Shown here one piece after another: positions 2,671 through 18,098 of a stretch of 64,000 nt of DNA. Each line of letters opens with the position of its first letter. Within the stretch, counting starts at the first letter, position 1. Source of the stretch: a virus (Duplodnaviria; Caudoviricetes); the IMG/VR virus record IMGVR_UViG_3300042561_002102; one strand, written 5' to 3'. The position numbers and the translations under genes were made by a program. The notes under the pieces are model-generated. The model ran no database searches, was not told the origin of the DNA, and was given only the letters and a program-made list of their open reading frames with translations.

Positions 2671-2680
2671 ACTCTATATA

Positions 2681-3352: not shown

Positions 3353-3362
3353 ACTCTATATA

Positions 3363-4034
3363 TTAAAGATATCCACCAATAGACCACAAATCGTCTATCT
3401 TCACGAGTATATTCTCGGGTAACATCTTTTTTAGTTCTTCTTGTTTCTTCTTGAACCCTTCAGTATTCCAGGCAAGACTTACGTAGTATGGAAAGTTTGG
3501 ATTTTGGTCGATTTGTTCTTCGATAACTTGAGGTGTAAAGAAACGATGCGTAAGTAGTAGTGATATCTGATCCGGGTTGATTTGGTCTATACTGAATAGG
3601 AATGATTGTAAGTTATAGCTGAACCGGGTATTCTTGAAACAGAAGTTACTTCCTATCACTTCAGGTGCTCCCTCTAGGGATATAAGTGGATTTCCATAAC
3701 AATAAAAATCTCCACGAACCACTCTAGGTGATCCTTCAAGAGTTCTCAGTTGGTTCCCAGAACAACTAAAATCTTTACCAACCTCGATGGGTGCCCCTTC
3801 AGGAGTTCTCAGTTGATTATCAAAACACCAAAAATATCCACTCACCTTTCCAAACCTGATACCTAAGAAATCTTCAAGTCCTTGATTATTACACCAAAAA
3901 TTTCCCCTAACATCAACAAGTCCTTCACTATTCACCGACCAAGTGCCACGAGTATTCTTATCTAAAAACTTTCTCTGCTCATCCGTCAAACCATCACTAC
4001 TCTCGAATAGCTTATAATCTCTAAGATATCTCAT
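3363..4034 (-). CDS. LRR-array paralogue A5 (223 aa)
   Basis: Same architecture; start trimmed. Confidence 0.92.
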   Translation of the reverse strand: MRYLRDYKLFESSDGLTDEQRKFLDKNTRGTWSVNSEGLVDVRGNFWCNNQGLEDFLGIRFGKVSGYFWCFDNQLRTPEGAPIEVGKDFSCSGNQLRTLEGSPRVVRGDFYCYGNPLISLEGAPEVIGSNFCFKNTRFSYNLQSFLFSIDQINPDQISLLLTHRFFTPQVIEEQIDQNPNFPYYVSLAWNTEGFKKKQEELKKMLPENILVKIDDLWSIGGYL

Positions 4035-4045
4035 AACACTATATA

Positions 4046-4717
4046 TTAAAGATATCCACCGATAGACCACAAGTCGTCTATCTTCAGGAGTATATTCTCG
4101 GGTAATGTCTTTTTTAGCTCTTCTTGTGTTTTTTTAAATCCTTCGGTATTCCAGGCAAGACTTACGTAATATGGGAAATCAGGATCTTGGTCGATTTGTT
4201 CTTTTATAACTTCAGGTGTGAAGAAATGATGTGTAAGAAGGAGTGATATTTCATCTGGTTTGATTTGGTCTATCCTGTTTAGGAATGATGGTAAGTTATA
4301 TTTGAATCGGGTATTCTTGAAAAGGAAGTTACCCTCTATCACTTCAGGTGCTCCTTCTAGAGATATCAGTGGATTTTTATAACACCTAAAATCTCCACCA
4401 ACCACTCTAGGTGCTCCTTCAAGAGTTCTCAGTTGGTTACTGAAACAACTAAAATGTTCACCAACCTCCCTAGGTGATCCTTCAAGAGTTCTCAGTTGGT
4501 TACCCCAACAATAAAAACCTCCACTCACCTTTCCAAACCTAATACCTAAGAAATCTTCAAGTCCTTGTTCATGGCCCCAAAAACTTCCCTTGACATCAAC
4601 AAGTCCTTCACTATTCACCCACCACTTTCCACAAGCAATCCTATCTAAAAACTTACTTTGCTCATCCGTTAAACCATCATTACTCTCGAATAGCTTATAA
4701 TCTCTTAGATATCTCAT
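4046..4717 (-). CDS. LRR-array paralogue A6 (223 aa)
   Basis: Same architecture. Confidence 0.92.
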   Translation of the reverse strand: MRYLRDYKLFESNDGLTDEQSKFLDRIACGKWWVNSEGLVDVKGSFWGHEQGLEDFLGIRFGKVSGGFYCWGNQLRTLEGSPREVGEHFSCFSNQLRTLEGAPRVVGGDFRCYKNPLISLEGAPEVIEGNFLFKNTRFKYNLPSFLNRIDQIKPDEISLLLTHHFFTPEVIKEQIDQDPDFPYYVSLAWNTEGFKKTQEELKKTLPENILLKIDDLWSIGGYL

Positions 4718-4727
4718 ACTCTATATA

Positions 4728-5399
4728 TTAAAGATATCCACCGATAGACCACAAGTCGTCTATCTTCAGGAGTATATTCTCGGGTAATATCTTTTTTAGT
4801 TCATCTTGTGTTTTTTTAAATCCTTCGGTATTCCAGGCAAGACTTATGTAATATGGGAAATCAGGATTTTTAGTTATTTGTTCCTTAATAACCTCGGGTG
4901 TAAAGAAATGATGAGTAAGAAGGAGTGTTATTACATCTGGTTTTACATGGGCTATCCTGTTTAGGAATGATTGTAAGTTATATCTGAAAACGGTTCTCTT
5001 GAACAAGAATTGACCCTCTATCACTTCAGGTGCTCCCTCTAGAGATATCAAGGGATTTCCATGACAATGAAAATCTCCATCAACCTTTCTAGGTGCCCCT
5101 TCAAGAGTTCTCAGTTGATTAGCCCAACAATAAAAACCTTCACCAACCTCCACGGGTGATCCTTCAAGAGTTCTCAGTTGGTTACTACGACAACTAAAAT
5201 CTCCACTCACCTTTCCAAACCTAATACCCGAGAAATCTTCAAGTCCTTGACTATGACAATAAAAATCTCCCTCGACATCAACAAGTCCTTCACTATTCAC
5301 CGACCAAGTTCCACGAGTATACTCATCTAAGAACTTCCTCTGCTCATCCGTCAAACCATCACGACTCTCGAATAACTTATAATCTCTAAGATATCTCAT
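4728..5399 (-). CDS. LRR-array paralogue A7 (223 aa)
   Basis: Same architecture; start trimmed. Confidence 0.92.
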   Translation of the reverse strand: MRYLRDYKLFESRDGLTDEQRKFLDEYTRGTWSVNSEGLVDVEGDFYCHSQGLEDFSGIRFGKVSGDFSCRSNQLRTLEGSPVEVGEGFYCWANQLRTLEGAPRKVDGDFHCHGNPLISLEGAPEVIEGQFLFKRTVFRYNLQSFLNRIAHVKPDVITLLLTHHFFTPEVIKEQITKNPDFPYYISLAWNTEGFKKTQDELKKILPENILLKIDDLWSIGGYL

Positions 5400-5410
5400 A
5401 ACACTATATA

Positions 5411-6082
5411 TTAAAGATATCCACCAATAGACCATAAGTCGTCTATCTTCAGGAGTATATTCTCAGGTAATATCTTTTTTAGTTCATCTTGTTTCTTCTT
5501 GAACGGTTCTGTATTCCAAACAAGACTTACGTAGTATGGAAAGTTCGGATTTTTAGTTATTTGTTCTTCGATAACTTTAGGTGTAAAGAAATGATGGGTA
5601 AGAAGTAGTGATATTTCATCTGGGTTGATTTGGTCTATTTTTCTAAGGAATGATTGTAAGTCATAGTCGAAAAAGGTATCGTTGAAACAAAAGTCATTCT
5701 TTATCACATCAGGAGCTCCCTCTAGGGATATCAGGGGATTTAGATAACAATAAAAACTTCCATCAACCTCTGTAGGTGATCCTTCAAGAGTTCTTAGTTG
5801 GTTACCATGACACAAAAAATCTCCACCAACCTCGCTGGGTGCCCCTTCAAGAATCCTTAGTTGGTTACTAGAACAATTAAAACTTCCTCTCACCTTTCCA
5901 AACCTGATACCCAAGAAATCTTCAAGTCCTTGATCTTCACAAAGAAAACTTTCCTTGACATCAACAAGTCCTTCATTATTCACCGACCAAGTTCCATAAG
6001 TATTCCTATCTAAAAACTTCCTCTGCTCATCCGTTAAACCATCACGACTCTCAAATAACCTATAACCCTGGATATACTTCAT
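5411..6082 (-). CDS. LRR-array paralogue A8 (223 aa)
   Basis: Same architecture; starts MKYIQGY. Confidence 0.92.
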   Translation of the reverse strand: MKYIQGYRLFESRDGLTDEQRKFLDRNTYGTWSVNNEGLVDVKESFLCEDQGLEDFLGIRFGKVRGSFNCSSNQLRILEGAPSEVGGDFLCHGNQLRTLEGSPTEVDGSFYCYLNPLISLEGAPDVIKNDFCFNDTFFDYDLQSFLRKIDQINPDEISLLLTHHFFTPKVIEEQITKNPNFPYYVSLVWNTEPFKKKQDELKKILPENILLKIDDLWSIGGYL

Positions 6083-6093
6083 AACACTATATA

Positions 6094-6765
6094 TTAAAGA
6101 TATCCACCAATAGACCACAAATCATCTATCTTCAGGAGTATATTCTCGGGTAAGATCTTTTTTAGATCCTCTTGTTTCTTCTTGAACGGTTCTGTATTCC
6201 AAACAAGACTTACGTAATATGGGAAATCAGTATTTTGAGTTATTTGTTCCCGAATAACCTCGGGTGTAAAGAAATGATGGGTAAGTAGGAGTGATATTAA
6301 TTCTGGTTTCATACGGTCTATCTCGTTTAGGAATGATTGTAAGTTATATCTGAAATAGGTTTTCTTGAAACTGAATTGACCCTCTATCACTTCAGGTGCT
6401 CCCTCTAGAGATATAAGTGGATTTTCATAACAATAAAAACTTCCACCAACCACTCTAGGTGATCCTTCAAGAGTTCTCAGTTGGTTACCCCAACACCCAA
6501 AATCTCCACCAACCTAGCTGGGTGCCCCATCAAGAGTTCTTAGTTGGTTACTACTACAATAAAAACTTCCGCTCACCTTTCCAAACCTGATACCTAAGAA
6601 ATCTTCAAGTCCTTGACCTTGACAATAAAAACCTCCCTTGATATCAACAAGTCCTTCACTATTCACCGACCAAATTCCACTAATACACTTAGCTAAAAAC
6701 TTCCTCTGCTCATCCGTTAAACCATCACGACTCTCGAATAGCTTATACTTTCTAATATACTTCAT
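6094..6765 (-). pseudogene. LRR-array paralogue A9 with internal nonsense codon
   Basis: Full-length 672-bp frame with an in-frame TAG at 6514-6516 where paralogues have GAG (APS-E-V). Confidence 0.85.
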
Positions 6766-6866
6766 ACTACTATATATTAAAGATATCCACCGATAAACTA
6801 CCCTTCATCTACTCCCTCTAGATCCTCTTGAGATAGGATTCTACGAAGCTCATTTTTTTGAAGGTG

Positions 6867-6988
6867 AGATACATTTAGGTTTTCTTTTTTAATATATACA
6901 CTAAAATAATAAACGAAGATGAAAGATAAAAGACACATAAAAAGTTTTAATGAAGCAACAGAAAACTTGAACATATCTGGTCTTAGTG
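6867..6988 (+). repeat. Degenerate leader-type attC-like element (left core lost)
   Basis: AGATACATTT..AACATATCTG arms; homologous to 10140-10273 and 12582-12716; contains TAATATATA and the ATG of the 6919 ORF. Confidence 0.6.
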
Positions 6989-7173
6989 ATAGTAGTTTTA
7001 ATTTTAATGATGAAAAGTTAAGAACTATGATGAAAGATTTAGTTGATTATACAAGAGGTAAGATCAGAGAGGTTCCAAAAGATACAGAGTCGAAAAAATT
7101 CGTTGATAATTTCATCAAAGAATATGAAGACTGGTATAAATTAAGTGATGAAGAACAGAGGTCTGCTATTTAA
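6919..7173 (+). CDS. Hypothetical protein with shared MKxxxHIKSFNE..ENLNIS leader
   Basis: ORF; first ~21 aa homologous to the ORFs at 10204 and 12647, remainder unrelated. Confidence 0.75.
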   Translation: MKDKRHIKSFNEATENLNISGLSDSSFNFNDEKLRTMMKDLVDYTRGKIREVPKDTESKKFVDNFIKEYEDWYKLSDEEQRSAI

Positions 7174-7186
7174 TTAAAACTATTAT

Positions 7187-7321
7187 CACTAACTCGTTTA
7201 CCTGTCCAGTTTTCCTTCACCTATAGAACACAACCATGATGTATTTGTGCCTTTAAGATTTGGAAATCTGAAAATTATTTTGTATATTTGTAAAAAAACT
7301 TACCCATACACCTTGTTATAA
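7187..7321 (+). repeat. Promoter-type cassette boundary element (CACTAAC...GTTATAA)
   Basis: Homologous to 8967-9080 and 12467-12579; carries TTTG (7259) and TATATTTG (7283-7290), matching the Bacteroidota sigma70 -33/-7 consensus. Confidence 0.65.
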
Positions 7322-7334
7322 AACGGTTTTTATT

Positions 7335-7535
7335 ATGAAAAATTCAGAAAATCAAAAAGATTTAGTAAAGGCATGGACCAAGATGGAATTAAATTCTTCT
7401 TACGGATTCCCACCAGTTCCAATCATACCAATGGAATATGATGAAAATAAAGCACTTCAAATTACCGAAGAAGGTAAGAAGAATTTAATGGTGATGCAGG
7501 AAGCGTTGAAAAATGTTCAAACTGAGAACGGGTAA
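7335..7535 (+). CDS. Hypothetical protein
   Basis: ORF beginning 14 nt after GTTATAA. Confidence 0.6.
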   Translation: MKNSENQKDLVKAWTKMELNSSYGFPPVPIIPMEYDENKALQITEEGKKNLMVMQEALKNVQTENG

Positions 7536-7586
7536 AAAGAAAATAAAAATTTTAGAGAGGCAATTAATAAATTTAAACATTAAACT

Positions 7587-8009
7587 ATGTTAGTAAAATT
7601 AAATATTATTCAAGAAACAGAGAAAGCATATAAACTAGAAGGTAATGGTTGGATACCAAAATCTGTATTAGACAACAGAGGACTAAAACATCCTTACTAT
7701 CAAATTAAAGGATGGTGGCTTCAAAATTTAGTTGGGAAACTACATGATAACGAAGCAACTATACAAGAAAAAGAAACTCTAACAAGTTTGAGTAAATGTA
7801 GGATCAAATTAACAGACTTATCAAAAGATGATTTGAATTTTTGGCAAAAATATTGGGATGATGCTTATAATTCATTACCGCCATCGAGAAGTGAAAGGGC
7901 AACACCAAAACACAAATCAAAAAAGAATAATAATCTTGAACATTGGAATGATATAGGTGCTATGAATGATTTATCTTTTCAAGATTTGTATGGAGATTTT
8001 GGTTATTAA
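7587..8009 (+). CDS. Hypothetical protein
   Basis: 140-aa ORF. Confidence 0.7.
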   Translation: MLVKLNIIQETEKAYKLEGNGWIPKSVLDNRGLKHPYYQIKGWWLQNLVGKLHDNEATIQEKETLTSLSKCRIKLTDLSKDDLNFWQKYWDDAYNSLPPSRSERATPKHKSKKNNNLEHWNDIGAMNDLSFQDLYGDFGY

Positions 8010-8068
8010 ATAATTAGTAGAAACCTTAAGAGGTATTTCACATATATCTTGTTATAAAACGTTATTTT

Positions 8069-8245
8069 ATGAAAAAGATTAATAAGAAATACCCAGTTAA
8101 TCATAAAGATGTGTTATTGAGTGGAATTAACACACTTACAAACGAAAATATAAAAGTTATTGGTTATAGGATAAAGGGGGAAAACAGGTTTATAACTTCA
8201 CCAAAAGGATGGTGTGTTAATTTCACACATTATGAAGAACTATAA
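8069..8245 (+). CDS. Hypothetical protein (58 aa, not in ORF track)
   Basis: MKKINKKYPV...HYEEL; bounded by GTTATAAAACG (8051) and TATAAC (8251). Confidence 0.55.
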   Translation: MKKINKKYPVNHKDVLLSGINTLTNENIKVIGYRIKGENRFITSPKGWCVNFTHYEEL

Positions 8246-8250
8246 TGTTT

Positions 8251-8303
8251 TATAACGACCGATAATAAACAATCGTTTTGGTGTTGTTTATCATTTGTTA
8301 TAA
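8251..8303 (+). repeat. Short attC-like hairpin
   Basis: TATAAC-gaccg-ataataaacaa..ttgtttatcat-tt-GTTATAA; near copy of 13190-13243. Confidence 0.75.
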
Positions 8304-8350
8304 GTATGTAAAACAAAAATTATAAAAATTAATATAAAAAACAAAAAAAT

Positions 8351-8584
8351 ATGAGTTGGAAATTAAATACAGAAGATGAAAATCCATTATGGAGACAATA
8401 TATGGATGAACTTGAAAAAATGAATCCTGAAGAACAAAGAAAATGGGAAGTTGTGAGAGAACTACCAGTTGAATTACCATTTAAGACAACAACAACTTCA
8501 AACTATTCAGAGGATGAATTTTTGGAAAAACTTAAAACAGATGAAGAATTTAACAAAAGGTGGGGGAAACTGAAAAACTCATAA
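8351..8584 (+). CDS. Hypothetical protein
   Basis: 77-aa ORF, followed by a left half-site TATAAC..ataaacaa at 8599-8620. Confidence 0.65.
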   Translation: MSWKLNTEDENPLWRQYMDELEKMNPEEQRKWEVVRELPVELPFKTTTTSNYSEDEFLEKLKTDEEFNKRWGKLKNS

Positions 8585-8630
8585 TTTTTTTTATTAGATA
8601 TAACGGTCGAGTATAAACAAATGCAAAATT

Positions 8631-8954
8631 ATGAAAGAAATTAAAGTAAGAAGTAAAGACAATAAACAGTTTATTTTGAAAAAAGATGGAACTTATGCAA
8701 AAGTCAATAATTTTAAAGTTGGTGATATTTTTAAATTCATAAAAGAGTGGAAAACAAGTGAAGGTGATGTTCAAGTTGGCGATGTTTTTATTATTGACTC
8801 AGTATGGGAAAACGATAAAAAATCACAAGGTGTTTATTGGATTAGATGTATTAATAGGAAACGTGATGGTAGAAAAGATAGGGATTGGGTTATGGGAACA
8901 TCTTTAATGGATTTCAATGATAGTTATGGTGATATTTTTATTATTAACCAATAA
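8631..8954 (+). CDS. Hypothetical protein
   Basis: 107-aa ORF. Confidence 0.7.
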   Translation: MKEIKVRSKDNKQFILKKDGTYAKVNNFKVGDIFKFIKEWKTSEGDVQVGDVFIIDSVWENDKKSQGVYWIRCINRKRDGRKDRDWVMGTSLMDFNDSYGDIFIINQ

Positions 8955-8966
8955 AATTTTTGATAT

Positions 8967-9080
8967 TGAATATATTTCGTTTATTTGTCCAGTTCCCCTT
9001 CACCCATACACCAGGAATATGATGTATTTTTGTAGGTAAGATTTGGAAATCTCGAAATTTATACTTACATTTGTAAAAAA
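8967..9080 (+). repeat. Promoter-type boundary element, degenerate left core
   Basis: tgaatatatttcgtttatt..taagatttggaaatctcgaaa..TACATTTG (9066-9073); homologous to the 7187 and 12467 copies. Confidence 0.6.
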
Positions 9081-9233
9081 TTAAAAATAAGTAAAATAAA
9101 ACTATATGGTAATTTTAATTTGGTTAGTAATGGGTGCGTCAGGTGTATTAATTTCTAACGCCATACACAGTATTTTTTGGGCTGGATTTCAATAATTTTT
9201 TATCTTTAGATATTTATATATAAACATAAAACT

Positions 9234-9476
9234 ATGAGTAAAGAAATGGGAAAATACATCGACACTTTCAAACAAAGAATTTTGAAAGAAAATGAAGAAT
9301 TTAATGAAGATGACACAACGAAATATCTTGATTGTTTGGATTCACTTAAAAAAGTTGATGATGGAATACATAGAGAGGAAGTATTTGATTGGTTTAAGGA
9401 GAATAATATAGATTTCTTTAATATGAGTGAATTACGTATGTATATTCTCTATATTGAGAGAAATGCGGTTAGGTAA
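9234..9476 (+). CDS. Hypothetical protein
   Basis: 80-aa ORF after a TATATA motif. Confidence 0.65.
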   Translation: MSKEMGKYIDTFKQRILKENEEFNEDDTTKYLDCLDSLKKVDDGIHREEVFDWFKENNIDFFNMSELRMYILYIERNAVR

Positions 9477-9514
9477 AAATATTGTGTAGATGAGGATTAT
9501 ATATCTTTATATTT

Positions 9515-10021
9515 ATGGATAAAGAGATTATGAAACAAAGAATAAAACATATTAGAAAAACCATTAGAGATTTCATTAGTGAAAATCTACAAAATGAAAA
9601 ATTAATTCAACCCATCAAAGAGTCATCGGTTATGGATAAATTAGTTGATGAGCAGCGTTACTCAGATATGAATTATAATAATATTGTTATTGATTTTTTT
9701 ACAGGTATGAGAGGAATTGATGATTTATTTGAATCCATATACGAAGGATTATATGGTGGAGTTCAACGATATAGAGTAGAACCTAATGAAGGTAATTTTG
9801 ATAAAGATTTCTTAATTAAGTTTATTAAAATAAATCAGGGTGATAATGATTTTGATTATGAACTTGGAAGGATCGGTTATAGATTTCTAACTTCGGATGA
9901 AGGGTTAAAAGAATTATCAAAATTCTACCTAGACGAATTAAAAACATACAAAGATGAATATGTCTCAAATGAAGTTATTGAAAATTGTAAGAAATCGTTA
10001 ATTAATATAATCGGCACATAA
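9515..10021 (+). CDS. Hypothetical protein
   Basis: 168-aa ORF. Confidence 0.7.
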   Translation: MDKEIMKQRIKHIRKTIRDFISENLQNEKLIQPIKESSVMDKLVDEQRYSDMNYNNIVIDFFTGMRGIDDLFESIYEGLYGGVQRYRVEPNEGNFDKDFLIKFIKINQGDNDFDYELGRIGYRFLTSDEGLKELSKFYLDELKTYKDEYVSNEVIENCKKSLINIIGT

Positions 10022-10069
10022 TTTTAATTTTTCTCAAGAAGGGTGGAAAATTTTCATTGTATATAACTT

Positions 10070-10108
10070 ATGAACTACACATCAGCTAAAGACTGATGTG
10101 TAGTTCAT
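10070..10108. mobile_element. Solo IS200/IS605-end-like palindrome (MITE/PATE-like)
   Basis: Perfect 16-bp arms ATGAACTACACATCAG/CTGATGTGTAGTTCAT. The loop reads TCTTTAG on the minus strand, the same as the tnpB left-end loop; the terminus GTGTAGTTCAT equals the tnpB right end. Confidence 0.65.
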
Positions 10109-10139
10109 TTGTAGATTTTTAAAAAAAAATTACATCCGG

Positions 10140-10273
10140 ACATAACGGCTACAGATATATTTAGGTTTTCTTTTTATATATATACTAAAAATAATAAACG
10201 AGTATGAAAGATTTAAAACACTTAAAGAGATTTAACGAGTCAGATGAAAACTCGAATATATCTGATGTTAGAA
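10140..10273 (+). repeat. Leader-type attC-like element
   Basis: ACATAAC-ggcta-cagatatatt ... aatatatctg-at-GTTAGAA; the loop holds TATATA, an ATG and the leader codons. Confidence 0.75.
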
Positions 10274-10446
10274 GTGATAAATCACACATTGATTTCTTGG
10301 ATGAATTTGTTGAAAAAATAAACCAGTTAAGAGATGATGTTAAAAAGAAGGGTTATGTTGATAATGAAAATGTGGATTTTATAGAGGAGCTTTACTCTGT
10401 TTATTCATTTTATTATGATACAGAGGAGAGGTTTGTTAAAAATTGA
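10204..10446 (+). CDS. Hypothetical protein with shared leader
   Basis: MKDLKHLKRFNESDENSNISDV, then unique sequence. Confidence 0.75.
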   Translation: MKDLKHLKRFNESDENSNISDVRSDKSHIDFLDEFVEKINQLRDDVKKKGYVDNENVDFIEELYSVYSFYYDTEERFVKN

Positions 10447-10454
10447 TTTATATG

Positions 10455-11794
10455 TCAAGTCAAAGAAAACACAGAAGTCTTTAGCTTCTGTGATGAATTT
10501 GTAAATATTTTACTAAAAATAGTAAAAAAGTTTAAGAAAATACAAAAAGGAACTTTGAAACTTTAATATATACTAATATGTTAAAGTCGTATAAATATAA
10601 GATTAAACCAACAGAAGATCAAAAAGTCTTGTTAAACAAGCATTTTGGATCTATAAGGTTTGCTTATAATTACTTCTTGAATGAGCGTAAATTTGAATAC
10701 GAAACCAATAAACAAACCTTAAATTATAATGATAATTCTGCGACTTTGACAAAGCTTAAAAAACAAGAAGAATTCAAGTGGTTAAAGGAAATCAATAGCC
10801 AATCACTTCAACATTCACTCAAAAGTTTAGATGATTCTTATAATTCCTTTTTTAAGAAAAGAACTGGATTTCCTAAATTTAAATCTAAACATAGTAAAAA
10901 TTCATTTAAAGTTCCTCAATTTGTTAGGGTAAATGATGGATGTTTAATAATACCAAAGTTTAAAGATCCTATCAAGATGATCCAAGATAGAAAGTTTAAA
11001 GGTGATATTAGACAAGCTACATTATCAAAAACACCTACAAATGAGTATTTTGTAAGTATTTTAGTTGAAACAGATCACAAGAAGTTTGATAAGACCGGTA
11101 AAGAAGTTGGGATTGATCTAGGAATTAAAGATTTCGTTATAACTAGTGATGGACATAAGTATAAGAATAATAAATTTACAAAAACTTACGAAAATAAACT
11201 TACAGAAAATCAAAGACATTTGGCTAAAAAAGTTAGGGGAAGTAGTAAATATAACAAACAAAAACTTAAAGTAGCTAAACTACACAAGAAGATAACCAAT
11301 TCTCGTTTAGATAATCTACATAAAGTATCCACAGAGTTAGTCAGGAAGTATGATGTAATCTATCTTGAAGATCTAAACATCAAAGGAATGATTAAAAATC
11401 ATAAATTGGCTAAACACATTTCAGACGCTTCGTGGGGTAAATTCATTACCCTACTGGAATATAAAGCTATTTGGAATGACAAGCAGATAGTTAAAATCGA
11501 TAGATTTTTTCCATCCAGTAAGCAATGTAATAATTGTGGATTCATAAATCAAAATTTAAAATTGGATTGTAGGGAATGGACTTGTCCTTCCTGTAATACG
11601 GAGTTAGATAGAGATTTAAATGCTAGTAAAAATATCCTTAAAGAAGGAATTAAAACATTATCGTTTGGAACAGACGATTACAGACATGGAGCTCAAATAA
11701 GACCAGTTTTAACTGGCACAGGCGATGAAGTGTTTAAAAAGAAGGAGCTAATGTCTCCCGAAACACAACGAACTTTAGTCGTTGTGTAGTTCAT
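10455..11794 (+). mobile_element. Non-autonomous IS200/IS605-family (IS1341-like) element
   Basis: tnpB without tnpA; left hairpin cacagaag-tctttag-cttctgtg (10470-10492); right hairpin acacaacga-actttag-tcgttgtgt-agttcat (11763-11794). The exact left boundary is uncertain. Confidence 0.75.
10578..11789 (+). CDS. tnpB: RNA-guided endonuclease TnpB
   Basis: N-terminal HTH_OrfB-type sequence (YKYKIKPT..LLNKHFG..RFAYN); RuvC motifs GIDLG, EDL and DRDLNAS; CxxC..CxxC zinc ribbon. Confidence 0.95.
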   Translation: MLKSYKYKIKPTEDQKVLLNKHFGSIRFAYNYFLNERKFEYETNKQTLNYNDNSATLTKLKKQEEFKWLKEINSQSLQHSLKSLDDSYNSFFKKRTGFPKFKSKHSKNSFKVPQFVRVNDGCLIIPKFKDPIKMIQDRKFKGDIRQATLSKTPTNEYFVSILVETDHKKFDKTGKEVGIDLGIKDFVITSDGHKYKNNKFTKTYENKLTENQRHLAKKVRGSSKYNKQKLKVAKLHKKITNSRLDNLHKVSTELVRKYDVIYLEDLNIKGMIKNHKLAKHISDASWGKFITLLEYKAIWNDKQIVKIDRFFPSSKQCNNCGFINQNLKLDCREWTCPSCNTELDRDLNASKNILKEGIKTLSFGTDDYRHGAQIRPVLTGTGDEVFKKKELMSPETQRTLVVV

Positions 11795-11966
11795 AAAGAC
11801 GGCACAATAAAAGAAATTTATAGAGATAAAAAACAATAGAAGTGATGGCAAAAAAAATAGAAGTGATATTGAAACTAATAATCGCAATATTAACAGGTGT
11901 TGTGGTTTGGGAGTGGTTTCAAATCATTTCTATTTTGACCATCGAATCCGGTAAATTTTCATAGAT

Positions 11967-12272
11967 ATGACAGAAGAACAAATGAAAGAATATGTAGTAA
12001 ATGGTGGAAAACTTTTTACTATCAAAACGATTGAAATTATTAGAGATGGTGGGACTGTTGTATTAGACACAACTGGTGGTGTTTTTTTCATACATAAGGA
12101 TAGTAAAAAGTTTCACTATCGTTATTCACCAAGTAATGAAAATTTGGTAACAGATTTACTTTTGGTAGAATATTTGATTGAACGAATTGAGGTATACATT
12201 AAAAGATGTGAGGAAGATGTCCAGAGAAATAAAAATCTTTTAATTGAAATTCAAAAACAAAAAACATTCTGA
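11967..12272 (+). CDS. Hypothetical protein
   Basis: 101-aa ORF. Confidence 0.7.
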   Translation: MTEEQMKEYVVNGGKLFTIKTIEIIRDGGTVVLDTTGGVFFIHKDSKKFHYRYSPSNENLVTDLLLVEYLIERIEVYIKRCEEDVQRNKNLLIEIQKQKTF

Positions 12273-12286
12273 TAATATAGATTTAT

Positions 12287-12466
12287 ATGGAAAAAGAAAG
12301 GGAAAAAACAACAATCTTCTGTGGTGTTTATCACGAAATGACCGAAGAGGAGAAGAACAATTTTATCAATATGATGTCAGAAAATGGAAAGTATGATGTT
12401 GTTTTTGATGATGGTAATACTATACCTAAATTAGTGGAAATGTCTCTACCATTTTTAAAAACTTGA
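12287..12466 (+). CDS. Hypothetical protein (59 aa, not in ORF track)
   Basis: MEKEREKT...PFLKT; stop lies 3 nt before TAAC at 12470. Confidence 0.55.
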   Translation: MEKEREKTTIFCGVYHEMTEEEKNNFINMMSENGKYDVVFDDGNTIPKLVEMSLPFLKT

Positions 12467-12579
12467 ATATAACTCGTTTATTCGTGAAGTTTTACCAACC
12501 CTATACACCCGAATGATGTTGTATTTGTGTTGGTAAGATTTGGAAATCTCGAAACTTATTTGTATATTTGTAAAAAAAT
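12467..12579 (+). repeat. Promoter-type boundary element
   Basis: TATAACTCGTTTAT...TTTG (12539)...TATATTTG (12563-12570). Confidence 0.65.
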
Positions 12580-12581
12580 TA

Positions 12582-12716
12582 CACATAACGTCTCTTAGAT
12601 ATATTTAGGTTTTTTTTTTAATATATACTAAAAACAATTTACGAAGATGAAAGGTAATAAACACATAAAAAGTTTCAACGAGCATCAAGAAAACTTGAAT
12701 ATATCTGATGCTGGCG
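12582..12716 (+). repeat. Leader-type attC-like element with mutated right core
   Basis: CACATAAC..agatatattt ... aatatatctg-at-GCTGGCG. Confidence 0.65.
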
Positions 12717-13183
12717 AAGGCTTTGGATTGAAAACTGGTAAATATGTATTATATAACCATCAGACCATTCCATTACCAATTGAAATTACTGAGATAGGTA
12801 TGGATGGCTGGATAGAATTTGAAACTGACTATTCAGTTGGTAATAAACAATATTGGGTAAAGGAATTCATTGGAACAGAAATGGAGGGACTTGTATACGA
12901 TCCGATCAGGGGTTGGTTTAAATTTAGTGAGATAGAAAAAGTAGAAGGAAAAAAAATATACTTGCTTGTTGGTGATATTTTCAAAATTAAAGCACAGAGA
13001 TTAATAGATGATACTAAAAAACTAAAAGACGAATACTCCCAAAGCCAATATAAAAAGATAATAGATTTAGAAAAACTAATACATGGAACAGAAGATGATA
13101 GGAAAAAGTTTGTTAAATCTATTATGAGACTTTTAGGAATGACAAAGTGGGACTTACCAGATGAGTTGTATAGGTATTTGTAA
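12647..13183 (+). CDS. Hypothetical protein with shared leader
   Basis: MKGNKHIKSFNEHQENLNISDA, then unique sequence. Confidence 0.8.
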   Translation: MKGNKHIKSFNEHQENLNISDAGEGFGLKTGKYVLYNHQTIPLPIEITEIGMDGWIEFETDYSVGNKQYWVKEFIGTEMEGLVYDPIRGWFKFSEIEKVEGKKIYLLVGDIFKIKAQRLIDDTKKLKDEYSQSQYKKIIDLEKLIHGTEDDRKKFVKSIMRLLGMTKWDLPDELYRYL

Positions 13184-13189
13184 AATTAT

Positions 13190-13243
13190 CACTAACGTAT
13201 GATGATAAACAATCGTTTTAATGTTGTTTATCATTTGTTATGT
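13190..13243 (+). repeat. Short attC-like hairpin
   Basis: CACTAAC-gtatg-atgataaacaa..ttgtttatcat-tt-GTTATGT; perfect 11-bp inner stem. Confidence 0.8.
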
Positions 13244-13272
13244 GTAGTCTATTTCATAAATATATAATTAAT

Positions 13273-13725
13273 ATGAAGCTAAAAAAATACAACGAATACA
13301 ATTCACATAAAGATACATTAATAGTATCAGCTTTTCCAGGATGTGGAAAATCACACTATTTCAGAGAAAATAGGGACAAAATCGTACTTGACTCTGATTC
13401 AAGTAAGTTTGATAAATCAGATTTTCCAAGAAACTATATTCAACATATCAAAGAAAATAGGGGTAAAGTCGATGTTATAATGGTTTCTTCTCATAAAGAG
13501 GTAAGGGATGCGTTGGTAGAAAATGGAATAGAATTTACATTAGTATATCCTGATAAATCTATAAAAGATGAGTATATTCAAAGATATATTGATAGAGGTA
13601 GTCCAGATTCATTTATCAACTTACTTACGAAAAATTGGGAATTGTGGATTGATGAACTCGATAATCAAATTGGTTGTGATAAAATAAAACTAAAAGAAGG
13701 TGAATATCTTTCGGATGTTTTATAA
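13273..13725 (+). CDS. Small P-loop NTPase / kinase-like protein
   Basis: IVSAFPGCGKS Walker A; VLDSDSS; start trimmed to MKLKKYNE. Confidence 0.7.
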   Translation: MKLKKYNEYNSHKDTLIVSAFPGCGKSHYFRENRDKIVLDSDSSKFDKSDFPRNYIQHIKENRGKVDVIMVSSHKEVRDALVENGIEFTLVYPDKSIKDEYIQRYIDRGSPDSFINLLTKNWELWIDELDNQIGCDKIKLKEGEYLSDVL

Positions 13726-13734
13726 AATAGATTA

Positions 13735-13867
13735 CACATAACGATACTCAGATATACTCAGTTCCCAGATTTAATATATAAACTTAAATTGAAACACGAA
13801 ACAATTGAAAAGAACAGAATTAAAAGATTTAACGAAAACTCAGAATTGAATATATCTGATGTTAGCA
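13735..13867 (+). repeat. Leader-type attC-like element (divergent loop)
   Basis: CACATAAC..cagatatactca ... tgaatatatctg-at-GTTAGCA. Confidence 0.7.
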
Positions 13868-13974
13868 GTTCGTTGTATCCTACCGATGAACAAATTTTAG
13901 AAATGGTAGAAGATTTTACAAAAGACTTGAATGTGAGCAACACAGTTAAAAAAGCGACGATTTGTGGTCTATAG
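13789..13974 (+). pseudogene. Truncated leader-fused ORF joined to array B upstream remnant
   Basis: RIKRFNENSELNISDV leader; at ~13955 it runs into array sequence GACGATTTGTGGTCTATAGG. Confidence 0.5.
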
Positions 13975-13999
13975 GGGGGTATCTTTAATATATAGTCAT

Positions 14000-14671
14000 A
14001 TGAAGTATATTAGAAAGTATAAGTTATTTGAGAGTAGTGATGGTTTGACGGATGAGCAAAGGAAGTTTTTAGATAGGAATACTGAAGGAACTTGGTCGGT
14101 GAATAAAGAAGGACTTGTTGATGTTAGGGGAAGTTTTTGGTGTCAAGGTCAAGAACTTGGAGATTTCTTAGGTATCAAGTTTGGAAAGGTGAGTGGAAGT
14201 TTTTTTTGTTGGGGTAACCAACTGAGAACTCTTGAAGGATCACCTAGAGAGGTTGGTGGAAATTTTGGGTGTAATGGTAACCAACTGAGAACTCTTGAAG
14301 GATCCCCTATGATGGTTGGTGAAAGTTTTTGGTGTGGAGAAAATCCTTTAATATCTTTAGAAGGAGCTCCTGAAGTGATAGAGGAAGAGTTCAAATTCAA
14401 GAATACCTGGTTCGACTATAACTTACAATCATTCCTAGACGAGATAGACCGTATCAAGCCGGATGAAATATCACTGCTACTTACCCATCACTTCTTCACA
14501 CCACAAGTTATAAAAGAACAAATAACTAAAAATCCTGATTTCCCGTATTATGTAAGTCTTGCCTGGAATACAGAAGGATTCAAAAAAACACAAGATGAAC
14601 TTAAAAAGATCTTACCCGAGAATATACTCGTGAAGATAGACGACTTGTGGTCTATTGGTGGATATTTATAA
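14000..14671 (+). CDS. LRR-array paralogue B1 (223 aa)
   Basis: MKYIRKYKLFES; same architecture as array A. Confidence 0.92.
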   Translation: MKYIRKYKLFESSDGLTDEQRKFLDRNTEGTWSVNKEGLVDVRGSFWCQGQELGDFLGIKFGKVSGSFFCWGNQLRTLEGSPREVGGNFGCNGNQLRTLEGSPMMVGESFWCGENPLISLEGAPEVIEEEFKFKNTWFDYNLQSFLDEIDRIKPDEISLLLTHHFFTPQVIKEQITKNPDFPYYVSLAWNTEGFKKTQDELKKILPENILVKIDDLWSIGGYL

Positions 14672-14682
14672 TATATAGTAGT

Positions 14683-15354
14683 ATGAAGTATATCCAGGGT
14701 TATAAGTTATTCGAGAGTCGTGATGGTTTGACGGATGAGCAGAGAGAGTTTTTAGATAGGATTGCTCGTGGAAGGTGGTCGGTGAATAGTGAAGGACTTG
14801 TTGATATCAAGGGAATTTTTATTTGTAGTGGTGAAGGACTTGAAGATTTCTTAGGTATCAGGTTTGGAAAGGTGAGTGGAAATTTTTCTTGTAGAGATAA
14901 CCAACTGAGAACTCTTAAAGGATCACCTAGAGAGGTTGGTGGAGATTTTAGTTGTCGTGGTAACCAACTTAGAACTCTTGAAGGATCACCTAGAAAGGTT
15001 GATGGATGTTTTTATTGTTATAGAAATCCACTGGTATCCCTAGAGGGAGCTCCTGAAGTGATAGAGGGTAGCTTCTATTTCAAGAATACCTGGTTCAGAT
15101 ATAACTTACCATCATTCCTGAACTGGATAGACCGTATCAAACCGAGTGAAATATCACTACTACTTACCCATCATTTCTTTACGATTGAGGTTATTCAGGA
15201 ACAAATCGACCAAAATCCTGATTTCCCATATTATGTAAGTTGCGCCTGGAATACTGAAGGATTCAAGAAGAAACAAGAAGAGCTAAAAAAGATATTACCC
15301 CAGAATATACTCGTTAAGATAGATGATTTGTGGTCTATTGGTGGATATCTTTAA
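14683..15354 (+). CDS. LRR-array paralogue B2 (223 aa)
   Basis: Same architecture. Confidence 0.92.
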   Translation: MKYIQGYKLFESRDGLTDEQREFLDRIARGRWSVNSEGLVDIKGIFICSGEGLEDFLGIRFGKVSGNFSCRDNQLRTLKGSPREVGGDFSCRGNQLRTLEGSPRKVDGCFYCYRNPLVSLEGAPEVIEGSFYFKNTWFRYNLPSFLNWIDRIKPSEISLLLTHHFFTIEVIQEQIDQNPDFPYYVSCAWNTEGFKKKQEELKKILPQNILVKIDDLWSIGGYL

Positions 15355-15366
15355 TATATACAGAGT

Positions 15367-16038
15367 ATGAAGTATATCCAGGGTTATAGGTTATTTGGGA
15401 AAGTAGATAGTCTCACTGACGAGCAGAGGAAGTTTTTAGATAAGTATATTTCAGGAAGATGGTCAGTGAATGGTGGAGGACTTGTTGATATCGAGGGAAG
15501 TTTTATTCCTGGTGGTGGAGGACTTGAAGATTTCTTAGGTATCAGGTTTGGAAAGGTGAGTGTAAGTTTTAATTGTTGGGGTAACCAACTGAGAACTCTT
15601 GAAGGGGCACCTAGGGTGGTTGATGGAAATTTTAGTTGTTCTAAGAACCAACTGAGAACTCTTGAAGGATCACCTAGAGTGGTTCGTGGAAGTTTTTGGT
15701 GTGAAGGAAATCCCTTGATATCCCTAAAGGGAGCCCCTGAAGTGATAGAGGGTTCCTTCTGTTTCAAGAATACTTATTTCGGATATAACTTACAATCATT
15801 CCTTGAAAAAATAGACGACGACCAACCTGATGAAATATCACTCCTACTTACCCATCACTTCTTCACACCTCAAGTTATCGAAGAACAAATAACTAAAAAT
15901 CCTGATTTCCCATACTACGTAAGTCTTGTTTGGAATACAGAACCGTTCAAGAAGAAACAAGATGAACTAAAAAAGATCCTACCCGAGAATATACTCGTGA
16001 AGATAGATGATCTGTGGTCTATTGGTGGATACCTTTAA
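15367..16038 (+). CDS. LRR-array paralogue B3 (223 aa)
   Basis: Same architecture. Confidence 0.92.
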   Translation: MKYIQGYRLFGKVDSLTDEQRKFLDKYISGRWSVNGGGLVDIEGSFIPGGGGLEDFLGIRFGKVSVSFNCWGNQLRTLEGAPRVVDGNFSCSKNQLRTLEGSPRVVRGSFWCEGNPLISLKGAPEVIEGSFCFKNTYFGYNLQSFLEKIDDDQPDEISLLLTHHFFTPQVIEEQITKNPDFPYYVSLVWNTEPFKKKQDELKKILPENILVKIDDLWSIGGYL

Positions 16039-16048
16039 TATATAGAGT

Positions 16049-16783
16049 ATGAAGTATATTCGAGATTATAAGCTATTTGAGAGTCGTGATGGTTTGACGG
16101 ATGAGCAGAGGAAGTTTTTAGATAAGAATACTCGTGGAACTTGGTCGGTGAATAGTGAAGGACTTGTTGATGTCGACGGAAGTTTTTGGTGTGAAGATCA
16201 AGAACTTGGTGACTTCTTGGGTATCAGGTTTGGAGAGGTAATTGGAAGTTTTCGGTGTTATGCTAACCAACTGAGAACTCTTGAAGGATCACCCAGAAAG
16301 GTTGGTGGAAATTTTAGTTGTTTCAGTAACCAACTGAGAACTCTTGAAGGATCACCTAGGGAGGTTGTTGGGGGTTTTTATTGTTTTCGTAACCAGCTGA
16401 GAACTCTTGAAGGATCACCTAGAGTGGTTGGTGGACATTTTAATTGTTCGGAAAATCTACTGATATCTCTAGAAGGAGCACCTGAAGTGATAGAGGGTCA
16501 TTTCTGTTTCAAGAATACCTGGTTCAGCTATGACTTACGATCATTCCTGAACGAGATAGACCGTATAAAACCAGATGAAATATCACTGATACTTATCCAT
16601 CACTTCTTTACACCCGAGGTTATTCGGGAACAAATAACTCGAAATCCTGATTTTCCATATTACGTAAGTCTTGTTTGGAATACAGAAGGGTTCAAAAAAA
16701 CACAAGAAGTCCTAAAAAAGATCTTACCCCAGAATATACTCGTTAAGATAGATGATTTGTGGTCTATTGGTGGATATTTATAA
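16049..16783 (+). CDS. LRR-array paralogue B4 (244 aa, one extra repeat)
   Basis: 223+21 aa. Confidence 0.92.
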   Translation: MKYIRDYKLFESRDGLTDEQRKFLDKNTRGTWSVNSEGLVDVDGSFWCEDQELGDFLGIRFGEVIGSFRCYANQLRTLEGSPRKVGGNFSCFSNQLRTLEGSPREVVGGFYCFRNQLRTLEGSPRVVGGHFNCSENLLISLEGAPEVIEGHFCFKNTWFSYDLRSFLNEIDRIKPDEISLILIHHFFTPEVIREQITRNPDFPYYVSLVWNTEGFKKTQEVLKKILPQNILVKIDDLWSIGGYL

Positions 16784-16794
16784 TATATAGTATT

Positions 16795-17403
16795 ATGAGA
16801 TATCTTAGAGATTATAGATTGTTTGAGAATGTAGATAGTCTTACTGACGAGCAGAGGAAGTTTTTAGATAACTTTACTCGTGGAACTTGGTCGGTGAATA
16901 ATGAAGGACTTGTTGATATCAAGGGGAGTTTTCTTTGTGGTAATGAAGGACTTGAAGATTTCTTAGGTATCAGGTTTGGAAAGGTGAGTGGACATTTTTA
17001 TTGTTGGGGTAACCAACTGAGAACTCTTGAAGGATCACCTAGAAAGGTTGGTGAAGATTTTAATTGTGCTGATAATCCACTGATATCCCTAGAGGGAGCA
17101 CCTGAAGTTATAAAGTGTGATTTCCGTTTCAAGAATACCTGGTTCAGATATAACCTACAATCATTCCTTAAAAAAATGCTCCAAATCAAACCAGATGAAA
17201 TATCACTCCTACTTACCCATCATTTCTTTACACCACAAGTCATAAAAGAACAAATAACTAAAAATCCTGATTTTCCATATTACGTAAGTCTTGCCTGGAA
17301 TACCGAAGGGTTCAAGAAGAAACAAGAGGAGCTAAAAAAGATATTACCCCAGAATATAGTTGTCAAGATAGACGACTTATGGTCTATTGGTGGATATCTT
17401 TAA
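16795..17403 (+). CDS. LRR-array paralogue B5 (202 aa, one repeat fewer)
   Basis: 223-21 aa. Confidence 0.92.
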   Translation: MRYLRDYRLFENVDSLTDEQRKFLDNFTRGTWSVNNEGLVDIKGSFLCGNEGLEDFLGIRFGKVSGHFYCWGNQLRTLEGSPRKVGEDFNCADNPLISLEGAPEVIKCDFRFKNTWFRYNLQSFLKKMLQIKPDEISLLLTHHFFTPQVIKEQITKNPDFPYYVSLAWNTEGFKKKQEELKKILPQNIVVKIDDLWSIGGYL

Positions 17404-17414
17404 TATATAGTGTT

Positions 17415-18086: not shown

Positions 18087-18098
18087 TATATACAGAGT

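What the first reader, a model, noticed from the sequence alone, without database searches (positions are those of the whole stretch)
10140..10273. Recombination site that carries a promoter and an in-frame N-terminal tag for whatever cassette follows
Seen: the long attC-like elements (6867, 10140, 12582, 13735) enclose TAATATATA, a start codon and codons for K(H/R)(I/L)K(S/R)FNE..EN(L/S)NISD(V/A). The V codon is the GTT core itself. Protein homology among the four ORFs stops exactly there, and the downstream parts are unrelated. Inference: recombination at GTT fuses new cargo to a late promoter and a capsid-targeting-like leader, turning arbitrary peptides into packaged effectors. I do not know a named system that does this.
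Basis: partly seen in the sequence, partly recalled or inferred. Interest (0 to 1): 0.86.

Follow-up and report, generated by a model that had tools for sequence, protein, structure and literature searches.

The report
Phage gene-cassette hairpin holding a gene start
This 130-base repeat is the folded recombination site at the head of a small mobile gene cassette in a large freshwater phage, and its loop also holds that gene's promoter-like box, start codon and first 22 codons; it belongs to an integron-like gene-swapping system that I could not find described in the literature.

Summary
Four copies (6867, 10153, 12597, 13750) share a promoter-like TATATA box, a start codon and the codons MK..K.FNE..ENLNISDV. 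The proteins are unrelated after that point.

New here: the 18 bases before the box pair with the codons ENLNIS. This stem shows compensatory changes, so those codons are fixed as nucleotides, not as peptide.

The element is one subfamily of hundreds of TAACG-hairpin-GTTA sites that separate small genes in related phage contigs:
- The 6 bases after GTTA are the reverse complement of the 6 bases before the next TAAC, which is the integron cassette signature.
- A 266-aa Xer-type tyrosine recombinase lies at the array end: 261 sites upstream on its strand, 8 downstream, 1 on the other strand.
- Two natural cassette gain, loss or replacement events and one identical cassette in unrelated flanks have their junctions at or within 1-2 bases of TAACG, not at GTT. 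The hairpin therefore travels with the gene it starts.

Capsid targeting is untested.

This window holds no recombinase, and its copies are partly decayed.

The scan found the same system earlier on other DNA. I found no paper describing it.

The parts
10143..10147 (+). 5' core TAACG, the inferred crossover zone and start of the cassette
   Evidence: Direct repeat TAACGG bounds a 392-nt cassette indel. A 315-nt identical cassette runs from ATAACG to TAACG in unrelated flanks. A block replacement has both junctions 1-2 nt before TAACG. Coordinates.
10153..10170 (+). 5' arm of the long-range stem (AGATATATTTAGGTTTTC)
   Evidence: It is the reverse complement of 10246-10263 with G.T wobbles. RNAalifold on 47 copies gives an 18-pair stem, 5 pairs with compensatory double changes. 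Variant arm pairs are listed.
10171..10185 (+). T-run plus TATATA box, promoter-like and inside the loop
   Evidence: The box TTTAATATATA lies 5-25 nt before the ATG of about 35 genes of the window. A like box follows TAAC before the recombinase gene in relatives. Promoter activity is inferred, not shown.
10186..10203 (+). A-rich untranslated leader
   Evidence: Read directly from the sequence. It is conserved among class-A copies.
10204..10245 (+). Start codon and 13 loop-encoded codons (MKDLKHLKRFNESD)
   Evidence: In 34 distinct leaders the residues I7, F10, N11 and E12 are kept while their codons vary (TTC 16 / TTT 13; GAA 18 / GAG 15). This indicates selection on the peptide.
10246..10263 (+). 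3' arm of the stem, also codons 15-20 (ENSNIS here, ENLNIS in the consensus)
   Evidence: 62 of 71 hits to a fully degenerate back-translation are one single nucleotide string. There is no synonymous variation in 34 leaders. The peptide becomes KKLHIS when both arms change together.
10264..10270 (+). GAT + 3' core GTTA; GTT is Val22 in frame
   Evidence: GTT is read as a codon in 69 of 78 loop-start sites of the 109-139-nt class. Homology among copies ends here.
10271..10276 (+). Cassette-specific hexamer x (GAAGTG); its partner x'-TAAC is missing downstream
   Evidence: In intact arrays x is the reverse complement of the 6 nt before the next TAAC. No CACTTC-TAAC is found between 10270 and 13000. 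A TnpB gene follows.
10204..10446 (+). Cassette ORF, 80 aa: leader plus a two-helix cargo
   Evidence: ORF list. There are 11 full-length homologues in metagenome proteins, carrying different loop leaders, plus a 62-aa homologue without a leader. The AlphaFold model has residues 1-24 below pLDDT 50 and cargo helices 23-49 and 54-78.
6867..6985 (+). Copy 1, decayed: no TAACG, two adjacent stem mismatches, CTTA for GTTA; heads ORF 6919-7173
   Evidence: Its x (GTGATA) still matches x' (TATCAC-TAAC) at 7183-7194.
12586..12713 (+). Copy 3: TAACG, full stem, GCTG in place of GTTA; heads ORF 12647-13183
   Evidence: (RNA fold z -3.75).
13739..13864 (+). Copy 4: TAACG and GTTA kept, arms shortened by a matching 3-nt deletion, ATG lost
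8253..8300 (+). Short (48-nt) member of the same site family, without a gene start
   Evidence: (D13). This size class (48 nt) has 49 members in related contigs.
13193..13240 (+). Second 48-nt site. The cassette 13237-13743 behind it starts GTTATGTGTAGT and ends ATTACACATAAC
   Evidence: ssDNA fold z -3.97.

Best explanation
The element is the attC-like recombination site at the 5' end of a mobile gene cassette. It belongs to an integron-like system of large freshwater phages whose hosts are probably Bacteroidota.

Anatomy, on the strand that carries the genes: a 5' core TAACG, a 3-5 nt spacer, an 18-bp stem with two fixed G.T wobbles, a loop of about 70 nt, and a 3' core GTTA followed by six cassette-specific bases. 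Those six bases are complementary to the six bases before the TAAC that ends the same cassette.

Inferred mechanism: a compact Xer-type tyrosine recombinase is encoded at the end of such arrays in relatives, but not in this window. It is inferred to cut and join at or within 1-2 bases of TAACG on the folded gene-sense strand, as an integron integrase does on the folded bottom strand of attC.

Why the site carries a gene start: the genes run in the opposite direction to usual integron cassettes, so no common upstream promoter can serve them. Each cassette carries its own expression signals inside the loop of its site: a TATATA box, an A-rich leader, an ATG and about 14 codons. The 3' arm and GTT are then read as codons 15-22.

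Shown: the structure, the covariation, the cassette signature, the linkage to the recombinase, and junctions at TAACG. Inferred: the chemistry, promoter activity, and any role of the leader peptide.
For: - Stem: an 18-pair consensus stem with 5 pairs showing compensatory double changes. Variant arm pairs change three pairs together.
- Level of constraint: 62 of 71 hits to a degenerate ENLNISDV pattern are one DNA string. Arm codons show no synonymous change, while loop codons do.
- Strand: the + strand folds with z -2.1 to -3.75, the - strand with z -0.8. In 234 stems there are 467 G.T against 83 A.C.
- Family: 293 TAAC-hairpin-GTTA sites, in size classes of about 48, 80-90 and 125 nt.
- Cassette signature: x and x' of the same cassette match at 5-6 of 6 positions in 83 of 134 cassettes, and in 125 of 176 in the independent set. 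A site's own two brackets do so in 14 of 292 and 9 of 230.
- Recombinase linkage: one PF13495+PF00589 protein lies in or at the end of the array in 5 of 5 large records. In 74 loci found through the recombinase there are 261 sites upstream on its strand, 8 downstream and 1 on the other strand. 54 of 57 loci with upstream DNA have sites. The background is 4 sites in 1.03 Mb around distant Xer genes.
- Junctions: a 392-nt cassette indel bounded by TAACGG inside otherwise identical DNA; a block replacement with both junctions 1-2 bases before TAACG; a 315-nt identical cassette in unrelated flanks, bounded by TAACG.
- Gene start in the loop: 78 of 110 sites of 109-139 nt, with GTT in frame in 69 of 78.
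Against: - No recombinase gene lies in the 64-kb window (tblastn), and the whole genome could not be searched.
- The window's copies are partly decayed, and the given cassette lacks its 3' end.
- The recombinase lacks about 48 residues present in IntI4, including the extra domain held to be needed for folded attC.
- Nothing here shows recombination chemistry, single-stranded substrates or promoter activity.
- The stem and the x/x' pairing would also form in RNA, so an RNA-level role cannot be excluded.
- One cargo sits behind two different hairpins with the break at GATGTTA. TAACG is therefore not the only junction seen.
Confidence: 0.75

Rival explanations
1. First reader's model. The crossover is at G|TT on the 3' side, so the promoter, start codon and leader stay in place and are fused in frame to any incoming headless cargo. 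The leader directs the fusion into the capsid.
For: - Homology among copies ends at GTTA plus x.
- GTT is in frame in 69 of 78 sites.
- One cargo, 95% identical from GATGTTA to x'-TAACG, follows two different hairpin leaders.
- Homologues of this ORF's cargo carry four different loop leaders, and one has none.
- The leader is a low-confidence tail outside the folded cargo in the model.
- Loop residues are conserved as peptide.
Against: - All three clean recent events have their junctions at TAACG and carry the hairpin together with the downstream gene.
- The array end next to the recombinase is x'-TAAC followed by no hairpin.
- Re-assortment across an invariant 26-nt arm needs only homologous recombination.
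- There are no data on virions or processing.
Confidence: 0.12
2. The hairpin works mainly in RNA. Transcripts reading through from upstream contain both arms and are cleaved (RNase III-like) or kept untranslated. Transcripts started at the box inside the loop lack the 5' arm and are translated, as for T4 genes e, soc and 49 (from memory). Recombination would be a side effect of repeated sequence.
For: - Wobble pairs are strand-specific and lie on the mRNA-sense strand.
- The promoter-like box lies between the arms.
- An 18-20-bp stem is the size of an RNase III substrate (established knowledge).
- A host-type promoter lies just upstream of copy 3 (read by eye).
Against: - It does not explain the conserved TAACG/GTTA cores.
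- It does not explain the cassette-specific x/x' complementarity.
- It does not explain the strict one-sided, one-strand linkage to a tyrosine recombinase.
- It does not explain junctions exactly at TAACG.
- The start codon is in the open loop, not in the stem.
Confidence: 0.08
3. A PeSL-like passive cassette. The repeated regulatory sequence merely offers patches of homology for the phage's general recombination system, with no dedicated enzyme.
For: - Copies that kept the leader but lost the 5' arm have breaks inside the loop (L030, L040).
- L012 and L071 share an ORF, with the break in the untranslated stretch.
- The concept is established for T4-type phages (PMC2839356, PMC4122927).
Against: - Hairpins of unrelated sequence share only the cores, yet junctions fall at those 5 bases.
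- The recombinase linkage is nearly absolute.
- x/x' complementarity is not expected from homologous exchange.
Confidence: 0.04
4. An ordinary paralogous protein family that shares an N-terminal domain and upstream region by descent.
For: The copies share a peptide motif.
Against: - Non-coding parts and synonymous sites are conserved more strongly than the peptide.
- Compensatory changes alter the peptide.
- The cargos are unrelated.
Confidence: 0.01

Closest known systems
Integrons: IntI integrase, attI, attC-bounded cassettes, including attC clusters without integrase (CALINs) reported in phages (Qi et al. 2023, PMC9892861)
   Same: - Arrays of small single-gene units separated by imperfect palindromes closed by ..AAC / GTT.. 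cores.
- The ends of one cassette are complementary.
- The crossover lies in the core at the 5' side of the strand that folds.
- A tyrosine recombinase of the Xer/IntI clade sits at one end, next to a hairpin-less junction.
- This window, without the enzyme, corresponds to a CALIN.
   Different: - The recombinase has 266 aa and lacks the IntI extra domain.
- Genes lie on the folding strand, so the site is upstream of its gene.
- The site's loop holds a promoter-like box, the start codon and 14 codons, and its 3' arm is translated.
- Fixed G.T wobbles stand where attC has extrahelical bases.
- The host is a phage.
- The phage CALINs of Qi et al. were 2-3 canonical attC predictions, not this family.
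PeSL mobile regulatory cassettes of T4-type phages (Arbiol 2010, PMC2839356; Comeau 2014, PMC4122927)
   Same: - A conserved composite of promoter and stem-loop between small ORFan genes in hyperplastic regions.
- It marks the points of gene gain, loss and replacement.
- Cassettes are self-expressing.
   Different: - In a PeSL a terminator hairpin precedes a sigma-70 early promoter, and the ORF starts outside it.
- Exchange is attributed to homologous recombination, and no dedicated recombinase is known.
- Here the promoter box and the gene start are inside the hairpin, the cores are 5 bases, and a recombinase is linked.
T4 internal-protein locus with the capsid-targeting sequence (from memory: Repoila 1994; Comeau and Krisch 2005)
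   Same: A conserved upstream region plus a short N-terminal leader is shared by unrelated small proteins in a variable locus.
   Different: - The T4 leader is a proven packaging signal removed by the prohead protease. Nothing of that kind is shown here.
- T4 has no hairpin cores, no x/x' signature and no linked recombinase.
Xer/dif recombination (archaeal XerA, PDB 4a8e)
   Same: The recombinase aligns end to end with XerA (E 3e-40) and has the same two domains.
   Different: Xer acts on one double-stranded dif site for chromosome resolution. It is not linked to arrays of dozens of hairpin sites.

Membership tests
Integron | Tyrosine recombinase of the Xer/IntI clade next to the array | tested here: met
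   Met for the element family: 5 of 5 large records, and 54 of 57 loci found through the recombinase have sites upstream. Not met in this window.
Integron | IntI-specific additional domain in the integrase | tested here: not met
   Query residues 172-214 stand against residues 175-265 of IntI4 (2a3v), so about 48 residues are missing. TIGR02249 scores 146 bits against a cut-off of 265, in two stretches.
Integron | attC: imperfect palindrome closed by inverse cores ..AAC and GTT.. | tested here: met
   TAAC[GT]-stem-loop-stem-GTTA in 293 plus 261 sites, with stems of unrelated sequence.
Integron | Start and end of one cassette are complementary, and the crossover lies inside the core | tested here: met
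   x/x' match in 83 of 134 and 125 of 176 cassettes, against 5% or less for controls. Junctions at or within 1-2 bases of TAACG.
Integron | Extrahelical bases that select the recombined strand | tested here: inconclusive
   No bulged bases were scored. Instead, fixed mid-stem G.T wobbles occur on one strand (333 against about 10 A.C).
Integron | attI site beside the integrase gene | tested here: inconclusive
   A conserved junction ATT-x'-TAAC-TA(T/G)nATATAT lies before the recombinase ATG. Its function was not tested.
Integron | Mostly promoterless cassettes expressed from a common Pc | tested here: not met
   Genes run towards the recombinase, and each long site holds its own box and ATG.
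Integron | Recombination of folded single-stranded sites by the integrase | not testable with these tools
   Needs a conjugation-based or in vitro assay.
CALIN (attC cluster lacking integrase) | Two or more sites with no integrase nearby | tested here: met
   The window holds 4 long and 2 short sites and no recombinase in 64 kb. The sites are of the new type, not canonical attC.
PeSL | Terminator stem-loop followed by an early sigma-70 promoter, with the ORF outside the element | tested here: not met
   The box and ATG lie inside the loop and no T-run follows the stem. Sigma-70-like sites are not enriched.
T4 capsid-targeting leader | Leader directs the protein into the prohead and is cleaved by the prohead protease | not testable with these tools
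   Only the shared-leader pattern is seen.

The most novel reading that the evidence does not exclude
The loop-encoded leader (K.IK.FNE), which also heads many non-cassette proteins of these phages behind the same TATATA box, is a true sorting tag (virion packaging, injection or another compartment). On that reading the integron-like system is a plug-and-play device that gives any captured small protein both expression and delivery.
Probability: 0.15. Interest if true: 0.92.

Novelty: new variant of a known kind. Interest (0 to 1): 0.8.

Why it matters
Integrons are the textbook gene-capture system of bacteria. Their integrase is thought to need a special domain to handle folded attC sites.

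Here the same logic (hairpin sites, complementary cassette ends, crossover in an AAC core, enzyme at the array end) is found in large phages with three differences:
- The Xer-type enzyme is short and lacks that domain.
- The gene orientation is reversed.
- The recombination site itself is an expression module and encodes the N-terminus of the protein.

If confirmed, this shows how phages trade small accessory genes as ready-to-run units. It gives a second, independent model for single-strand hairpin recombination. It also explains a widespread 'conserved leader on unrelated ORFans' pattern in freshwater viromes.

Tried and rejected
- Rfam (E up to 1) gave nothing over 6000-14500.
- Pfam and PHROGs gave nothing for the four cargo proteins.
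- No whole genome is held for the window, so a recombinase elsewhere in this roughly 335-kb phage could not be sought. None of the 120 best recombinase relatives listed a 335,088-bp contig.
- Sequencing runs: 17 lake-water DNA runs hold the stretch, and no RNA holder is listed.
- Laying the contigs of 4 runs on 6000-14500 gave full cover by short contigs. The only joints had sides under 38 nt at repeats, so no usable cassette polymorphism was seen in this population.
- A Y1 HUH transposase (PF01797) was sought in 5 related records. None was found, so a REP/RAYT or IS200-type reading was dropped.
- The sigma-70 promoter and terminator scan around the element was not above shuffles.
- A protein search with the 80-aa ORF found full-length homologues but only two leader-only hits, a limit of the word index.
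- Covariation between the base before TAAC and the base after GTTA of the same site was looked for by eye and not found.
- The paralogous-protein-family reading was rejected on nucleotide-level conservation.

Full report
**What is in the window.**
The region 6.8-13.9 kb is AT-rich (27-29% G+C). It is packed with small plus-strand ORFs and lies between two inverted arrays of LRR-like paralogues.

Four elements align over about 130 nt. A degenerate pattern for FNE..ENLNISD hits three times against none in 100 shuffles. The given copy has these parts:
- TAACG at 10143-10147
- the block AGATATATTTAGGTTTTC at 10153-10170
- a TATATA box at 10174-10182
- ATG at 10204
- GAAAACTCGAATATATCT at 10246-10263
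- GAT-GTTA at 10264-10270, with GTT as Val22

Beyond residue 26 the four proteins are unrelated. Three of the four copies are damaged: 6867 has lost TAACG and reads CTTA, 12597 reads GCTG for GTTA, and 13750 has lost its ATG.

The block before the box is the reverse complement of the codons ENLNIS, with two G.T wobbles. It forms an 18-bp stem around the box, the untranslated leader, the ATG and 14 codons.

- The plus strand folds this way with z -2.1 to -3.75. The minus strand does not (z -0.8).
- An exact 23-nt search for the 5' arm found 24 stretches in IMG/VR, all with the same anatomy and unrelated flanks.
- A fully degenerate back-translation of ENLNISDV found 71 places, and 62 of them are one single DNA string. 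Conservation here is therefore at the nucleotide level.
- Variant copies change both arms together. For example AGATATATGTAGTTTTTT pairs with AAAAAATTACATATATCT, which is three compensatory pairs, and the peptide becomes KKLHIS.
- RNAalifold on 47 copies returns the 18-pair stem, with 5 pairs showing double compensatory changes.
- Among 34 distinct leaders the arm codons show no synonymous variation. The loop codons keep I7, F10, N11 and E12 while their codons vary.

The leader thus has two layers: a peptide-constrained loop part and a structure-constrained arm part.

**The element is one subfamily of a large family.**
A simple finder looked for TAAC[GT], a 6-11 nt offset, a stem of at least 13 pairs, and GTTA. 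It found 293 sites in the loci fetched.

- Stem sequences differ completely between members, but geometry is shared. Sizes cluster at 48, about 80-90 and about 125 nt.
- Sites follow one another every 300-600 bp between small ORFs.
- Under a symmetric rule, stems hold 467 G.T against 83 A.C. At mid-stem the count is 333 against about 10, so the gene-sense strand is the one selected to fold.
- In the 109-139-nt class, 78 of 110 sites have the ATG in the loop with the ORF running through the 3' arm. GTT is read as a codon in 69 of 78. Shorter sites have the gene start after GTTA.

**Cassette signature.**
The six variable bases after GTTA of one site are the reverse complement of the six bases before TAAC of the next site.

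| Comparison | Match at 5-6 of 6 |
|---|---|
| Same cassette, first set | 83 of 134 |
| A site's own two brackets, first set | 14 of 292 |
| One array (L070, minus strand) | ten in a row |

Three cassettes in the window keep the rule: 6982/7183, 7315/8247 and 13237/13733. This is the logic by which integron cassette boundaries were first defined (from memory: Hall, Brookes and Stokes 1991).

**A linked recombinase.**
Each of five large related records has exactly one PF00589 protein, and it lies in or at the end of the array on the same strand.

- It has 266 aa, with domains PF13495 plus PF00589.
- Its best family match is 'XerA / integron integrase', below the cut-off.
- Its best solved relatives are XerA (4a8e) and IntI4 (2a3v).
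- Against IntI4 about 48 residues are missing between residues 172 and 214, so the IntI extra domain is absent.

I then anchored on the recombinase alone. This gave 74 loci with at least 48% identity.

| Measure | Result |
|---|---|
| Sites upstream, on the recombinase strand (450 kb) | 261 |
| Sites downstream (623 kb) | 8 |
| Sites on the other strand | 1 |
| Loci with at least 1 kb upstream that have sites | 54 of 57 |
| x/x' rule, same cassette | 125 of 176 |
| x/x' rule, own site | 9 of 230 |

Around distant Xer genes in bacterial genomes the finder gives 4 sites in 1.03 Mb. Just before the recombinase ATG the last cassette ends ATT-x'-TAAC and is followed by TA(T/G)nATATAT with no hairpin. 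This is a candidate attI-like junction. No Y1 HUH enzyme was found.

**Where the crossover is.**
Three natural events answer this.

1. L005 differs from L006 and L022 by one 392-nt unit (hairpin, GTTA-x, own ORF, x'-TAAC) inside otherwise identical DNA. The unit is bounded by the direct repeat TAACGG.
2. In the same pair of phages four cassettes are replaced by one, with both junctions 1-2 bases before TAACG.
3. L096 and L113 have unrelated flanks (61-64% identity) but share a 315-nt unit at 100% identity. It runs from ATAACG to TAACG and holds one hairpin plus the ORF behind it.

So the hairpin moves with the gene it starts, and the crossover is at the 5' core. This matches an integron read on its bottom strand. 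There the folded strand begins ..AA|C, the integrase gene is co-directional with that strand, and it lies at the end of the array. The one real difference is that the cassette genes lie on the folding strand. That explains why each cassette needs its own promoter.

**Promoter and leader.**
TTTAATATATA lies 5-25 nt before the ATG of about 35 genes of the window. These include every LRR paralogue and the TnpB gene. A like box precedes the recombinase gene in relatives. I infer a phage promoter. Timing ('late') is unknown.

On the leader:
- Loop residues are under peptide-level selection.
- Related N-termini occur on non-cassette proteins.
- In an AlphaFold model of the 80-aa protein the first 24 residues are of low confidence and lie outside a two-helix cargo.

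This allows a tag function but does not show one. Other hairpin subfamilies encode quite different N-termini, some hydrophobic.

About 49 different proteins carry the standard leader. Only 8 of them have a cargo homologue in the set.

- L020 and L106 share one cargo at 95% identity, from GATGTTA-x to x'-TAACG, behind two different hairpin leaders.
- Homologues of the window's own cargo carry four different loop leaders, and one has none.

So leader and cargo are re-assorted across the invariant 3' arm. This could occur by homologous exchange or by a second site-specific event. It is rarer or older than the TAACG events.

**State of the window's own array.**
- No recombinase lies within the 64 kb.
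- A TnpB gene (10578-11789) follows the given cassette, which lacks its x'-TAAC end.
- A remnant of a second leader class lies at 9200-9300.

The array is best described as an orphan, partly decayed array.

**Literature and earlier notes.**
- PeSL cassettes of T4-type phages are the nearest regulatory-cassette concept.
- Qi et al. 2023 report canonical attC clusters in a few phages.
- Aquatic jumbo phages of Flavobacteriia with DnaK ('moraphages') are described without mention of a recombinase or such arrays.
- Four further searches found no description of this system.
- The scan's own notebook holds many earlier notes on the same system on other DNA, two of them on this very leader. I reached my reading from my own tests and list those notes separately.

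Noticed in passing
window 10578-11789: A TnpB (IS200/IS605 OrfB) gene stands alone, with no TnpA. The phage TTTAATATATAC box lies 5 nt before its ATG. It sits where the 3' end of the given cassette should be.
   Followed up: partly
window 7183-7297, 8966-9080, 12463-12577: A 115-nt repeat family (73-78% alike) carries a Bacteroidota-type promoter look (TTTG, about 20 nt, TATATTTG). Two copies start at TAACT, and the third ends right at the 5' core of leader copy 3.
   Followed up: partly
window 9195-9300: A remnant of a second leader class (MSKEMRKYIDTFKQ..) that in relatives sits between the same two arms. Here both arms are gone, and ORF 9234-9476 starts with it.
   Followed up: partly
window 616-19391 and elsewhere: The box TTTAATATATA lies only 5-7 nt before the ATG of every LRR-like paralogue, which suggests near-leaderless mRNAs. 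The proteins behind this box tend to start MK.I..(F/Y).LFE.
   Followed up: partly
window 11836-11869: TAGAAGTGAT occurs twice, 23 nt apart, just after TnpB. It is the same string as the cassette-specific bases after GTTA of the given element (10268-10277).
   Followed up: no
L143 about 9766-10489 (same contig as L024): A standard leader cassette is fused in frame to a recombinase gene lacking its first 103 codons. This is a broken platform.
   Followed up: no
L009 9766-9950: The 5' arm and half of the box are followed by an insert of about 110 nt with its own terminal inverted repeat. The rest of the box and CTTGTTA come after it. This looks like a small mobile insertion inside a site.
   Followed up: no
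window 8036-8062 and 7300-7330: Two copies of a lone 3' half-site (..CTTGTTATAAAACG) carry the same cassette-specific bases. Both precede an ORF start.
   Followed up: no
protein search: The compact recombinase has more than 7,400 cluster representatives at E 1e-20 or better in metagenome proteins. Where named at all, they are called XerD.
   Followed up: no
window 38632-40509: A full-length Hsp70/DnaK gene lies in the phage window. This fits the aquatic jumbo phages of Flavobacteriia described in PMC12619734.
   Followed up: partly
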